Origin: Limnochordia bacterium
GTDB taxonomy: Bacteria; Bacillota; Limnochordia; Darwinibacteriales; Darwinibacteriaceae
NCBI GenBank assembly: GCA_050952265.1
Contig: JBMNKP010000002.1
Location: forward strand, 65,112-129,111
DNA: 64,000 nucleotides
Reading direction: 5' to 3'
The translations under genes were made by a program, and so were the position numbers. Under the pieces are notes generated by a model. It worked only from the letters and a program-made list of their open reading frames with translations, had not been told where the DNA came from and searched no databases. Position 1 is the stretch's first letter. The number at the start of each line of letters is the position of its first letter. Shown here in pieces: positions 11,460 to 14,147 of this stretch.

Positions 11460-11490
11460 AAAGCCCCGGTGTACACCTGGGCTTTTACGG
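11460..11490 (-). terminator. Rho-independent terminator of the atp operon (minus strand)
   Basis: The hairpin aaagccc/gggcttt is read on the minus strand and is followed there by CTTTCTTTCT. Confidence 0.6.
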
Positions 11491-11492
11491 TG

Positions 11493-12026
11493 TTAGCTGG
11501 TTAAGGTGTGGGCGAGGGCATTCAGGCGGTGTTTGAGGCTGGCATCCAGGACCTTTCCATCCACCTTGATGATCAGGCCGCCAACTATGCTCGGATCCAC
11601 CTGCATGCGCAGGATGACCTTTCGGCCTGTGAGCTTGCTCAGTTTCTGCTGCAGCTCGGAGCACTCTTCTGGCGTCAGGTCAAGAGCAGAGGCGACCTCG
11701 GCCACGGAGGTGTTCTGATCATCGAGGACCAGCTGCTCAAACTCACGGTACATCATCGGGATGAAGCCTTCACGGCCTTTTTCCACCACCAAGAGCAGGA
11801 AGCTCTCGAGAAGCGGTGAGAGCTGCATCAGGCTGATCAGCTGAGCCTTGCGTTCCCGTCCCGTTCGGGGGTGGTAGAATGCCCCGCTGATTACCGGATC
11901 TTCCAGGACGGCCAGTACTCTTTTGAACTCCTGAGCGAGTTCAGCACGTTTGTCCTGGCCCGTCAGAAACAGCGCTTGGGCATAACGGCTGGCGATTTGA
12001 GAACTCCTCATGGTGGTCATGCTCAT
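11493..12026 (-). CDS. atpH: F-type ATP synthase subunit delta (OSCP)
   Basis: The protein has the delta/OSCP motifs IASRYAQALF and DPSIVGGLIIKVDGKVLDASLK. Confidence 0.85.
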   Translation of the reverse strand: MSMTTMRSSQIASRYAQALFLTGQDKRAELAQEFKRVLAVLEDPVISGAFYHPRTGRERKAQLISLMQLSPLLESFLLLVVEKGREGFIPMMYREFEQLVLDDQNTSVAEVASALDLTPEECSELQQKLSKLTGRKVILRMQVDPSIVGGLIIKVDGKVLDASLKHRLNALAHTLTS

Positions 12027-12523
12027 TGCAGATGTCCTTTGCCTAAGCTGCCAAGCTGGTTGATCGTGTCAGCTATGAGATGTCTGTGCTGCGCTGCATC
12101 CAGTGACTCATCGATGACCTTCGAGGCCAGCAGTACCGACAGCTCACCAACCTGCTGCTTCAGCTCGGCCCAGGCCTTGTCCTTTTCCAGCTGGATTTCC
12201 TTCTGCGCCCGGTCTAGGATCGCTCTTGCCTCAGCTTTGGCTTCGGCGATCAGTTTGGCTTGGACCTCCTCGGCTCTTCTGGTCGCCTCGTCAACGATCT
12301 GCCGCGCCTGCTGGCGGCTTTCTTTGAGCTGCTGCTCCAGCTCCAGACGCAGAGCTTCGGCCGCTTTTTGGCCCTCTTCGGCAGAGCGGATCTGGCCCTC
12401 AATTTCGGCCGTACGCTTATCCATGAAGGCGCGTACTGGTTTGTACAGCAGCTTGTAGAGCAGCAGAAGCAGCAGGATAAAGTTGATCGTCTGGGCCAAT
12501 AAGAGGTTTTGATCAATCAGCAT
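12023..12523 (-). CDS. atpF: F-type ATP synthase subunit b
   Basis: An N-terminal transmembrane segment is followed by a long charged coiled-coil (AEE..KAEAR). The start is GTG 12532 or ATG 12523. Confidence 0.8.
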   Translation of the reverse strand: MLIDQNLLLAQTINFILLLLLLYKLLYKPVRAFMDKRTAEIEGQIRSAEEGQKAAEALRLELEQQLKESRQQARQIVDEATRRAEEVQAKLIAEAKAEARAILDRAQKEIQLEKDKAWAELKQQVGELSVLLASKVIDESLDAAQHRHLIADTINQLGSLGKGHLQ

Positions 12524-12607
12524 CAGAGTCACCCTTTACAGCATATCTAGGTCCAGAACCAGCACCAAAGACGCAGTGATTCCCACTACACAATGCCCGG
12601 TGCCTTT

Positions 12608-12883
12608 CTACAGGAGTTCCAGCAGGCGGTTCACCAGCGGAAGCACAACGGTGAAGATCAGCAGCAAGGTCACTGCCAAAGAGTAGATGGCACCGGACTC
12701 AGACACCGCCTGACCTAGGAGCATGGTGGTGCGGATCGAGCCTTCCATCTCGGGTTGACGGGCCATAGCTTCCACAGCCTTTCCGGCGGCATAACCTTCA
12801 CCGATACCCACCAGTCCTCCAGAAATCAGAGCGATGCCGCAGCCGATGATAACTCCGGCAACGATGATGGCGATTTCTAGCAC
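12608..12883 (-). CDS. atpE: F-type ATP synthase subunit c
   Basis: The two-helix hairpin reads [20 protein letters not shown] ... [17 protein letters not shown] 12883 follows the RBS AAAGGAGG. Confidence 0.9.
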
Positions 12884-12917
12884 TTTCTTTCCTCCTTTCG
12901 TAGCTGTTCTGCAGCCT

Positions 12918-13562
12918 TTAATTGATTTTCATGGAAATGTAAACGACAGACAATAGCGTAAATACTGCTGTCTGGATGATGCCAGAGAAGATCCCGAACC
13001 AGCCTAGAAGGACAGCTGGGATGACATAGGGAGCGATCATATAGACGATGCTGAGCAGCACTCCGCCAGCGAAGATATTGCCATAGAGACGGAAGGAGTG
13101 GGAAACGATCTGCGACAACTCTCCGGCTATGTTGAGCGGAAGCAGGATGAAATACGGCTCCACAAAGCCCTTAATCCAAGGCAGAAAGCCCTTCTTGCGA
13201 ATCGCGGTATAGTGTCCTACCAGGAAGACGATCAGGGCGAGAGTAAAAGTGGTGGTCAGGTTCTCCGTGGGCGAGTAAGCCCCTGGGATGATGCCGATCA
13301 GGTTGGAAAAGCCCACATAGACCGCGATCATGAGGATAAGGGGAACGAACTTCTTTCCCTCCGGCCCCATATTGGTCAGCACCAGCTTTTCGATCCCGTC
13401 AACGAGCAGTTCTACAAAATGCTGAGCCCCCCTTGGGACTTTCTGCATGTTTCGGGTGAGCAAGAAAGAGGCCAGTGAGACTACGGCCATGATGATCCAG
13501 GTGAACAAGAGCGGCTTGCTAACCGGAAATGAGTAGATGTAGAACAAGACTTCAGCTTCCAC
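12918..13562 (-). CDS. atpB: F-type ATP synthase subunit a
   Basis: The conserved [10 protein letters not shown] arginine motif is present. The likely start is GTG 13562; the track uses TTG 13625, which would overlap atpI. Confidence 0.8.
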
Positions 13563-13929
13563 GCTTGATCCTCCCCCGCACAAGGTGGTAGAAGATGGCC
13601 AGGCGGGGCATGAGCAGCCCGCCAAAGGCGGCCATGTAGTTCAAATGGGGACTGAGAACTGCCGCGGTCAGGGTGGCAGCATAAAGGGCACAGCGCTTGA
13701 AAAAGGACTTCATGTTCAACCGGTACACATCCCGCCTGGCGAGCTCGACCGTGCGAGCAAGCCGCAGCAGGCGAGTACCGTCGATGATCATCAATCTGAG
13801 CACCAGCACACTCATGGACCCGCCCATGAGCAGGCCGAGAGCGGCTTCGACGCTCACAATCAACAGCCCTGCGCTGAGCAGGACTGTGAGTGCGACTGTG
13901 GTACGCAGCACATCATTTTCGTCGAACAT
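13552..13929 (-). CDS. atpI: ATP synthase protein I (AtpI)
   Basis: A small protein with two to three transmembrane segments sits at the atpI position. Its start overlaps the atpZ stop as GTGATG. Confidence 0.65.
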   Translation of the reverse strand: MFDENDVLRTTVALTVLLSAGLLIVSVEAALGLLMGGSMSVLVLRLMIIDGTRLLRLARTVELARRDVYRLNMKSFFKRCALYAATLTAAVLSPHLNYMAAFGGLLMPRLAIFYHLVRGRIKRGS

Positions 13930-14147
13930 CACTTGCGCTCCGCGTTGGAACCTAATGTGTCCATGATCAGCCTATAGGCACTCCAAAAGGCGGCGATACA
14001 GCCAAGCAGCAAAAAAACGAGGGTGAACACCGCCCGTGTTTTGAGCAGGCGATCGAGGTAGAGCCCCACAGCGATACAGATGCCAACGCTGGCGATCATG
14101 GTCACTCCAACTTGAGTAACCAGAGCAAGGTACTTCAGGCCGTTCAT
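13929..14147 (-). CDS. atpZ: AtpZ/AtpR-type small membrane protein of the atp operon
   Basis: It is a 72-aa two-transmembrane protein (MNGLKYLALVTQVGV..). ATG 14147 follows GAGGAG; the track ORF extends upstream of this start. Confidence 0.55.
   Translation of the reverse strand: MNGLKYLALVTQVGVTMIASVGICIAVGLYLDRLLKTRAVFTLVFLLLGCIAAFWSAYRLIMDTLGSNAERK

What the first reader, a model, noticed from the sequence alone, without database searches (positions are those of the whole stretch)
11460..14147. F-type ATP synthase operon is truncated after atpH: F0 plus delta only, no alpha/gamma/beta/epsilon
The minus-strand operon reads atpZ-atpI-atpB(a)-atpE(c)-atpF(b)-atpH(delta) and then meets a convergent terminator pair at 11417-11490. 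A + strand substrate-binding-protein gene follows immediately. In Firmicutes the operon is normally contiguous atpIBEFHAGDC. Here the F1 catalytic genes must be elsewhere, or this is a partial second copy of the operon.
Basis: seen in the sequence. Interest (0 to 1): 0.5.

Follow-up and report, generated by a model that had tools for sequence, protein, structure and literature searches.

The report
Split ATP synthase operon, lineage-wide
The membrane half of this bacterium's ATP synthase, plus its connector subunit delta, is a complete operon that ends after atpH, and the same split is found in every sampled member of its uncultured biogas-reactor order, so it is an old gene-order change and not a truncation or assembly error.

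Summary
On the minus strand, 11493-14147 encodes atpZ-atpI-atpB(a)-atpE(c)-atpF(b)-atpH(delta). Terminator hairpins follow, then a convergent peptide-binding-protein gene. No F1 gene (alpha, gamma, beta, epsilon) lies in the 64 kb window or within 10 kb beyond either end.

It is not a misassembly: the atpH junction recurs in at least 10 independent metagenome assemblies. It is not peculiar to this genome. Every sampled relative whose a subunit is 49-100% identical has the same break after atpH. These relatives belong to 'Candidatus Darwinibacteriales' (MBA03), Bacillota from anaerobic digesters. About 30 outgroup loci (a subunit 45% identity or less) keep atpH-atpA-atpG-atpD-atpC contiguous.

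All six genes are intact and under purifying selection, and delta is full length. The best reading is a functional Fo-plus-peripheral-stalk operon whose F1 partner is encoded elsewhere. I could not locate the F1 genes. Two papers report a complete F-type ATPase in these genomes.

Split atp loci are well known, and a delta|alpha break is known in Chlorobi. This is a new lineage for a known kind of rearrangement, so interest is low. Two side observations: the c subunit carries a Na+-type two-carboxylate motif, and a conserved unexplained leader motif lies upstream of atpZ.

The parts
14252..14280 (-). Promoter-like element: TGGATA, 17 nt, TG-n-TATCAT (extended -10), about 100 nt upstream of the atpZ start
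   Evidence: Found by the consensus scan. The block TGGATATCC...TGTTATCATACAT is nearly invariant in window, L011, L019, L018 and L013, while the flanking sequence varies. Function is inferred, not shown.
14186..14211 (-). Conserved leader motif GAAGGAAA-N12/13-RTGTGGAAC, between the promoter and atpZ. Function unknown.
   Evidence: One match in the window against 0.08 expected. It occurs once per order-member locus, always at the same place upstream of atpZ, with 3 off-target matches in 118 loci. No conserved RNA structure was found.
13929..14147 (-). atpZ (ATPase_gene1 family small membrane protein, 72 aa)
   Evidence: Pfam PF09527, E 1.4e-16. Most assemblies call it as 72-73 aa. The upstream ATG at 14261 is not conserved in relatives.
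13552..13932 (-). atpI (ATP synthase protein I, about 125 aa)
   Evidence: Pfam PF03899, E 9e-6, above the gathering score. It holds the same position in all relatives.
12918..13562 (-). atpB, Fo subunit a (214 aa)
   Evidence: Pfam PF00119, E 3e-46. It is 100% identical to NCBI HHW71951.1. The FRLYGN arginine (R158), N162 and Q197 are invariant across the order and outgroups.
12608..12883 (-). atpE, Fo subunit c (91 aa), with a Na+-type two-carboxylate signature
   Evidence: Pfam PF00137, E 2.5e-14. The best solved relatives are Na+ c-rings 4BEM, 3ZK1 and 1YCE. The motif [10 protein letters not shown]...SESGAIYSL is conserved across the order.
12023..12523 (-). atpF, Fo subunit b (166 aa)
   Evidence: Pfam PF00430, E 1e-31. 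NCBIfam NF009992 scores 135.7 bits, above its cut-off of 127. Its stop overlaps the atpH start.
11493..12026 (-). atpH, subunit delta (OSCP), 177 aa; last gene of the unit
   Evidence: Pfam PF00213, E 7e-39 over profile positions 1-172 of 172. It aligns end to end with delta/OSCP of solved ATP synthases, for example 6N2Y residues 3-173. dN/dS is 0.09-0.18.
11460..11485 (-). First terminator-like hairpin after atpH (AAAGCCCAGG-UGUACA-CCGGGGCUUU, then CUUUCUGU)
   Evidence: dG -13.8 kcal/mol, z -1.8. A GC hairpin plus U tract sits directly after the atpH stop in all 13 order members examined. Its position is conserved but its sequence is not.
11416..11445 (.). Strong 13-bp hairpin with U-rich sequence on both strands. 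Likely a bidirectional terminator shared by atpH and the convergent binding-protein gene.
   Evidence: dG -25.1 kcal/mol, z -4.7, and 0 of 200 shuffles fold as well. The sequence was read.
7266..11393 (+). Neighbour, not part of the ATP synthase: opp-like permease genes (7266-8234, 8247-9365) and the SBP_bac_5 binding-protein gene (9663-11393), convergent with atpH
   Evidence: Pfam and NCBIfam and the called genes. The cluster is present in most order members but absent in L036, L053 and L054, where atpH is followed directly by the SNF2 helicase gene.

Best explanation
This is a complete, functional transcription unit. It encodes the membrane sector and peripheral stalk of an F-type ATP synthase (a, c, b, delta) plus two accessory membrane proteins (AtpZ, AtpI). 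It belongs to an uncultured member of 'Candidatus Darwinibacteriales' (MBA03; called Limnochordia in GTDB-based work).

**How it most likely works.**
- Transcription probably starts at a conserved promoter about 100 nt upstream of atpZ. It stops at intrinsic terminators directly after atpH.
- The catalytic head and central stalk (alpha3beta3-gamma-epsilon, genes atpAGDC) are encoded at one or more other loci, more than 10 kb to the left and more than 60 kb to the right of atpH.
- The holoenzyme assembles in trans, as in the many bacteria with split atp loci.

**Origin.** The break between atpH and atpA arose once, in the ancestor of this order, and has been kept ever since.

**Shown here.** Gene content, intactness, terminator position, conservation of the break across the order, and contiguity in outgroups.

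**Inferred.** That the promoter and terminators function. That F1 exists elsewhere; this rests on selection on delta and b and on published KEGG-module calls. That the enzyme is probably Na+-coupled; this rests on the c-subunit motif.
For: 1. **Gene identities and tight operon structure.**
2. **Not a misassembly.** An identical junction occurs in 10 shown assemblies from JGI, ENA and Logan samples, out of 131 index blocks that carry the delta sequence.
3. **Same break in all relatives.**
   - Delta 66, 63, 58, 54, 50 and 47% identical: L011, L012, L019-L023, L013-L016.
   - a subunit 54% and 49% identical: L034, L036.
   - Nine further metagenome loci.
   - None has alpha, gamma or beta within 10 kb.
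4. **Outgroups are contiguous.** About 30 outgroup loci (a subunit 33-45% identical) all read delta-alpha-gamma-beta-epsilon.
5. **Conserved terminator position.** A hairpin plus U tract follows the atpH stop in 13 of 13 order members.
6. **Purifying selection.** dN/dS is at most 0.27 for all six genes and 0.09-0.18 for delta, with synonymous sites near saturation.
7. **Functional residues kept.**
   - Delta is full length and aligns with solved delta/OSCP.
   - The RYAxALF N-terminal helix is invariant.
   - The essential Arg of subunit a and the carboxylate of subunit c are conserved.
8. **Literature.**
Against: - The F1 genes of this lineage were never seen directly. They are absent from the window, from 10 kb beyond each end and from every relative's flanks.
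- A gamma-subunit search from the nearest outgroup returned only Fusibacter-like sequences.
- The literature statements are KEGG-module calls, not gene lists.
- No transcript data exist, so the promoter and terminators are predictions.
- The first hairpin after atpH in the window is only moderately stable (z -1.8), and its U tract is interrupted.
Confidence: 0.85

Rival explanations
1. Partial second copy. The genome carries a complete atpIBEFHAGDC operon elsewhere. This cluster is an extra Fo-plus-delta module, either redundant or an alternative stator and ion channel that shares the single F1.
For: - Nothing here rules out a second a/c/b/delta set on another contig.
- Ectopic duplicated Fo sets are known, for example in Desulfococcus oleovorans (PMC4154653).
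- The c subunit has a Na+-type motif. That would suit a specialised alternative module.
Against: - The delta search found a single delta family for the lineage: 14 of its 38 hits, and every one of those whose locus I examined lies at this locus. The a-subunit search gave about 57 such clusters among the 120 hits listed.
- All six genes have been kept intact under purifying selection across an order-level clade. A redundant copy would not be expected to last that long.
- The papers describe one F-type ATPase. They report a V-type enzyme only in Wallacebacteriaceae.
- The searches would miss a paralogue below about 30% identity, so this rival is disfavoured, not excluded.
Confidence: 0.07
2. F1 has been lost. 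The Fo-delta cluster is a remnant, or it has another role such as an ion channel or a partner for a different ATPase head.
For: No F1 gene was seen in about 84 kb around the locus, nor in any relative's 20 kb neighbourhood.
Against: - Delta has no known role other than tying the b stalk to alpha3beta3. It is nevertheless full length, with conserved F1-facing N-terminal residues and dN/dS of 0.09-0.18.
- Published module calls report the F-type ATPase as present. With only 4 of 8 subunits the module would not be called complete.
- By the paper's account Darwinibacteriaceae lack a V-type enzyme. They would then have no rotary ATPase at all.
Confidence: 0.03
3. Assembly or binning artefact: a chimeric join at about 11.4 kb removed atpAGDC.
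For: None, beyond the general risk with metagenome-assembled genomes.
Against: - The same junction, base for base in gene content, occurs in at least 10 independent assemblies made with different assemblers.
- It also occurs in at least 20 different species-level relatives.
- The spacer carries well-formed terminators.
Confidence: 0.01

Closest known systems
Canonical Bacillota atp operon atp(Z)IBEFHAGDC (Bacillus subtilis, Clostridium pasteurianum; Acetobacterium woodii type with multiple c genes)
   Same: - The genes, order and orientation of the first six genes are the same (Z, I, a, c, b, delta).
- Gene overlaps suggest translational coupling.
- The nearest outgroup locus, L035, reads Z-I-a-c(double)-c-b-delta-alpha-gamma-beta-epsilon.
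   Different: - Here the unit ends with a terminator after atpH, and atpAGDC is not nearby.
- A survey of complete genomes reported the locus as unsplit in Firmicutes (PMC4154653).
Split atp loci of Chlorobi and some Bacteroidetes: a-c-b-delta ; alpha-gamma ; beta-epsilon
   Same: - The break falls between delta and alpha, so delta is transcribed with the Fo genes.
- PMC4154653 reports 'a further split between ID and IA in the chlorobi'.
- PMC5709465 lists 'a-c-b-delta' units in Bacteroidetes.
   Different: - The phylum is different, so the event is independent.
- Whether alpha-gamma and beta-epsilon are together or also split in this order is unknown.
- This cluster additionally carries atpZ and atpI.
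Alphaproteobacterial split: atpIBE(F')F and atpHAGDC (Rhodospirillum rubrum type)
   Same: There are two transcription units for one enzyme, with assembly in trans. The pattern is conserved across the lineage (PMC5709465).
   Different: There the break is between b and delta, so delta travels with F1. Here delta travels with Fo.
Na+-binding c-rings of Fusobacterium nucleatum (3ZK1) and Ilyobacter tartaricus (1YCE)
   Same: - They are the best solved-structure matches (E 3.7e-21 and 4.6e-20).
- The [13 protein letters not shown] segment is identical to that of F. nucleatum.
- E at position 32, E65, S66 and Y70 are all present.
   Different: - Position 67 is Gly in the window's subclade, where these rings have Thr. 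Basal members of the order keep Thr.
- Ion specificity has not been tested.

Membership tests
F-type (F1Fo) ATP synthase, Fo sector and peripheral stalk | Subunit a carries the essential arginine in the penultimate helix (E. coli R210 equivalent) and partner polar residues | tested here: met
   R158 in [10 protein letters not shown]162 and Q197 are invariant in 15 sequences, including outgroups. Pfam ATP-synt_A E 3e-46.
F-type (F1Fo) ATP synthase, Fo sector and peripheral stalk | Subunit c is a two-helix hairpin with an ion-binding carboxylate in helix 2 | tested here: met
   The Glu in ...[12 protein letters not shown] aligns with E65 of I. tartaricus c. TIGR01260 scores 67.6 bits, above its cut-off of 43.95.
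F-type (F1Fo) ATP synthase, Fo sector and peripheral stalk | Subunit b and a full-length two-domain subunit delta (OSCP) are present | tested here: met
   - Subunit b: TIGR01144 scores 123.9 bits (cut-off 65.5).
- Subunit delta: TIGR01145 scores 99.3 bits (cut-off 57.5).
- Delta aligns over residues 8-176 with solved delta/OSCP chains.
F-type (F1Fo) ATP synthase, Fo sector and peripheral stalk | Partner F1 genes (alpha, beta, gamma, epsilon) are present in the same genome | not testable with these tools
   - They are not in the window or within 10 kb of either end, nor in any relative's flanks.
- The rest of the genome could not be read.
- The only support is from the literature.
N-ATPase (alternate F1Fo, atpDC-QR-BEF-AG) | No delta subunit; beta-epsilon lie upstream of the Fo genes; AtpR is present; sequences fit the alt-F1F0 models | tested here: not met
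   - Delta is present and no beta-epsilon lies upstream.
- The alt-F1F0 NCBIfam models score far below their cut-offs: TIGR03306 128.9 against 302, TIGR03322 44.9 against 130.9, TIGR03321 82.2 against 224.7.
Na+-translocating F-ATPase c-ring (I. tartaricus / F. nucleatum type) | Ligand set Q/E32, E65, S66, T67, Y70 | tested here: inconclusive
   - E32, E65, S66 and Y70 are present.
- Position 67 is Gly in the window and its subclade, but Thr in basal order members L034, L036, L052, L053 and L054.
- No biochemical data exist.
Split atp locus of the 'a-c-b-delta' type (as in Chlorobi) | Delta is the last gene of the Fo unit, and F1 genes are at a non-adjacent locus, conserved across the lineage | tested here: met
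   - The break after atpH occurs in all order members sampled.
- A terminator follows atpH in 13 of 13.
- The location and arrangement of the F1 genes remain unknown.

The most novel reading that the evidence does not exclude
The cluster is not simply the only Fo of the cell. It would be an alternative Na+-type Fo-plus-delta stator module that is swapped onto an F1 head encoded with a second (H+-type) Fo elsewhere. Alternatively, it works without a canonical F1. Either would be a new way of using F-ATPase parts. The evidence does not exclude this, because no complete genome of the order could be searched.
Probability: 0.05. Interest if true: 0.7.

Novelty: new member of a known kind. Interest (0 to 1): 0.17.

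Why it matters
- It gives a clean, order-wide synteny marker for 'Ca. Darwinibacteriales'. This is an abundant but uncultured group proposed to oxidise acetate syntrophically in biogas reactors.
- It corrects the impression that Firmicutes always keep an unsplit atp locus.
- Annotators should not score the ATP synthase of these MAGs as incomplete or fragmented because the operon 'stops' after atpH.
- The Na+-type c-subunit motif fits the Rnf-based energy conservation reported for these organisms. It is probably the more useful physiological lead.
- Beyond that, this is a gene-order variant of a kind already documented in other phyla, and no new mechanism is implied.

Tried and rejected
**Attempts to find the F1 genes.**
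1. I scanned all six frames of the window for Walker A motifs. The only hits were Cmk, FtsH-like, Der, SpoIVA, EF-G-like and RecA, with no F1 alpha or beta.
2. I read 10 kb beyond each window end. The left side holds murA-ftsQ-ftsZ-spoIIGA-sigE-sigG-spoIIR-nrdR-ftsK. The right side holds MatE, a UvrD-like gene, an ABC gene and transketolase. No F1.
3. tblastn with alpha, gamma, beta and epsilon against all 118 fetched loci found F1 only in outgroups.
4. I searched the protein database with gamma from the nearest outgroup (L035). I hoped to see hits sharing contig lengths or names with the lineage. The best 120 were all Fusibacter/Acidaminobacteraceae-like.
5. I scanned JGI metagenome contigs with an a-subunit profile, hoping for a basal member with atpH-atpA still joined. 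None was found.

**Other ideas that led nowhere.**
- The supplement of PMC12663870 is not held. The PMC11932165 table gives only presence marks.
- That the opp genes caused the split: rejected, because L036, L053 and L054 have the split without them.
- Recent transfer from Thermoleophilia, suggested by the delta motif NFLLLVVEKGR: rejected, because the a and c subunits are only 28-38% identical.
- The 110-aa version of AtpZ: rejected, because its ATG is not conserved.
- A riboswitch or structured leader: no Rfam hit and no consensus structure.
- The first genome scan with 16 delta sequences failed because no stretch was conserved enough.
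Full report
**What is there**

The minus strand between 11493 and 14147 carries six tightly packed genes. Pfam and NCBIfam identify them as follows:
- AtpZ (ATPase_gene1, E 1.4e-16)
- AtpI (E 9e-6)
- Fo subunit a (E 3e-46)
- subunit c (E 2.5e-14)
- subunit b (E 1e-31)
- subunit delta/OSCP (E 7e-39, covering the whole profile)

The atpZ/atpI and atpF/atpH gene pairs overlap by 4 nt, and atpI/atpB overlap by 11 nt.

The 99-nt spacer after the atpH stop holds two hairpins. One is at 11460-11485 on the atp strand (dG -13.8). The other is a strong 13-bp hairpin at 11416-11445 (dG -25.1, z -4.7) with U-rich sequence on both strands.

A convergent SBP_bac_5 gene ends at 11393. 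It follows two opp-like permease genes.

No F1-type alpha or beta ORF exists anywhere in the 64 kb.

**Not an artefact**

The exact delta protein is on record in 131 index blocks. The 10 places shown come from JGI, ENA and Logan samples. All have the same order: rimO (divergent), atpZIBEFH, then convergent SBP-oppC-oppB. One of them is a 214.6 kb contig that spans the whole window.

**Who it is**

The delta and a-subunit searches place the window among uncultured Bacillota from anaerobic digesters.
- One relative (delta 58% identical) is named Candidatus Darwinibacter acetoxidans by NCBI.
- Others are labelled Limnochordia or Firmicutes bacterium.
- NCBI files the genus under Clostridia, Ca. 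Darwinibacteriales.
- The papers equate this order with MBA03 and with GTDB families DTU010 and DTU012.
- The window's own a and delta proteins equal or near-equal NCBI HHW71951.1 and HHW71954.1.

**The split is lineage-wide**

- Contig look-ups for relatives with delta 66, 58 and 50% identical show the identical arrangement.
- So do five of the six GTDB species representatives found (delta 47-66% identical). The sixth contig ends just after atpH.
- So do members whose a subunit is only 54% (L034) and 49% (L036) identical.
- So do nine more metagenome loci.
- None has alpha, gamma or beta within 10 kb.
- In L036, L053 and L054 the opp genes are absent. There atpH is followed directly by the SNF2 helicase gene, so the opp cluster is not what broke the operon.
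- By contrast, about 30 outgroup loci (a subunit 33-45% identical, Peptostreptococcales-like Clostridia) read delta-alpha-gamma-beta-epsilon without interruption wherever enough DNA is available.

The break is therefore a shared derived character of this order.

**Functional, not decaying**

- All six genes are intact in every member.
- Pairwise dN/dS is at most 0.27 for every gene. It is 0.03-0.10 for a, c and b and 0.09-0.18 for delta. Synonymous sites are near saturation, so these values are upper bounds.
- Delta aligns end to end with delta/OSCP of solved enzymes.
- Delta keeps an invariant RYAxALF N-terminal helix. From my own knowledge of E. coli delta mutagenesis, this helix faces F1; I did not test that here.
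- Subunit a keeps the essential Arg, and subunit c keeps its carboxylate.
- A GC hairpin plus U tract sits immediately after the atpH stop in 13 of 13 members examined. The sequences differ, and this holds even where the next gene is co-directional. That argues for a real transcript end.
- A promoter-like TGGATA-17-TGnTATCAT at 14252-14280 is nearly invariant in five species.

**Where is F1?**

I could not find it.
- It is not in the window or within 10 kb of either end.
- It is not in any relative's flanks.
- A gamma search from the closest outgroup returned only that outgroup's relatives.

The support for 'elsewhere in the genome' is indirect:
- selection on delta and b, which have no known role without F1;
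[quoted passage not shown] A second full operon, which would make this a partial extra copy, is not excluded but is unlikely. Loss of F1 is very unlikely.

**Comparison with what is known**

- A survey of complete genomes (PMC4154653) lists Firmicutes among the phyla with an unsplit locus. It documents splits at nearly every junction elsewhere, including between delta and alpha in Chlorobi.
- PMC5709465 reports 'a-c-b-delta', 'gamma-alpha' and 'beta-epsilon' units in some Bacteroidetes. It reports delta travelling with F1 in Alphaproteobacteria.

So the kind of rearrangement is known. What is new is its occurrence, and strict conservation, in a Bacillota order.

The cluster is not an N-ATPase. 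Delta is present, the gene order differs, and the alt-F1F0 models score far below their cut-offs.

**Mechanism**

Two or more transcription units supply one enzyme. This unit gives the ion channel and rotor ring (a, c), the stator stalk (b, delta) and accessory factors (AtpI, AtpZ). A distant unit gives alpha3beta3-gamma-epsilon.

From established work on E. coli assembly (my own knowledge, not tested here), delta is the subunit that joins ab2 to a preformed c-ring-F1 complex. Encoding delta with a and b is therefore compatible with ordered assembly.

The c subunit resembles Na+-binding rings most closely (4BEM, 3ZK1, 1YCE). It has the two-carboxylate E32/E65-S66-Y70 set. Position 67 is Gly in the window's subclade, where basal members keep Thr. 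Na+ coupling is plausible and fits the reported Rnf complex, but it is untested.

**Verdict**

This is a real, conserved, ordinary-in-kind split of the atp operon: a new lineage for a known type of rearrangement. Interest is low (0.17). The residual novel reading, an alternative Fo module or an Fo without F1, has about 5% probability.

Noticed in passing
window 12608-12883 (-); L034, L036, L052-L054 and other order loci: The c subunit carries the Na+-type two-carboxylate motif ([10 protein letters not shown] ... SES.AIYSL = E32, E65, S66, Y70), as in Fusobacterium nucleatum. Basal order members have ESTGIYSL. The window's subclade has ESGAIYSL, with Thr67 replaced by Gly. The best solved-structure matches are all Na+ c-rings.
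   Followed up: partly
window 14186-14211 (-): There is a conserved leader motif GAAGGAAA-N12/13-RTGTGGAAC, about 40-60 nt upstream of atpZ.
- It occurs once per order-member locus, always at the same place. Chance expectation is 0.08 per window, and there were 3 off-target hits in 118 loci.
- No conserved RNA structure and no Rfam hit were found.
- The RTG-TGG-AAC could start a tiny upstream ORF (MWN...) of 3-15 codons whose length is not conserved.
- Its function is unexplained.
   Followed up: partly
L024-L033 (Thermoleophilia/Gaiellaceae MAGs); also P0017 and P0018 contigs: In these Actinomycetota the atp operon runs a-c-b-delta-alpha-gamma and then stops. No beta or epsilon lies within 10 kb, and opp-like permease and binding-protein genes often follow. 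This is the cyanobacterial/Bacteroidetes type of gamma|beta split, in a phylum the survey listed as unsplit. Their delta shares the NFLLLVVEKGR motif with the window's delta. The other subunits are only 28-38% identical, so recent transfer is unlikely.
   Followed up: partly
L035, L063, L073, L080, L083, L087, L088 and other outgroup loci: The nearest outgroups (Fusibacter-like Clostridia and others) have Acetobacterium woodii-style operons with two to five c-subunit genes, including a double-length (197 aa) c. All have contiguous F1 genes.
   Followed up: no
window 7266-11393 (+) compared with 11493-14147 (-): The opp-like permease and binding-protein genes are far more conserved between species (90-95% amino-acid identity to L011) than the adjacent atp genes a, delta, I and Z (65-71%), at similar synonymous divergence. 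No ABC ATPase gene accompanies the permease genes at this locus. The cluster is missing altogether in L036, L053 and L054.
   Followed up: partly
window 11493-14147 (-), in the context of 1-64000: Cumulative GC skew rises across the whole window, and most genes are on the + strand. The atp cluster therefore probably lies on the lagging strand, head-on to replication. That is unusual for a highly expressed operon. The orientation relative to rimO-pgsA-cinA-recA is the same in all relatives.
   Followed up: no
window 9507-11426 (-): A 639-aa ORF runs antisense to the whole binding-protein gene. It has no called gene in any assembly and is most likely a spurious long ORF of a GC-rich sequence.
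   Followed up: no
window 16802-18301 (+): A short (499 aa) FtsH-like AAA plus peptidase M41 protein is conserved next to pgsA, in the same position in all relatives. It is shorter than typical FtsH.
   Followed up: no
window 1-64000: No Rfam family reaches its gathering score anywhere in the 64 kb. The only tRNA is tRNA-Pro(GGG) at 50799-50876.
   Followed up: yes
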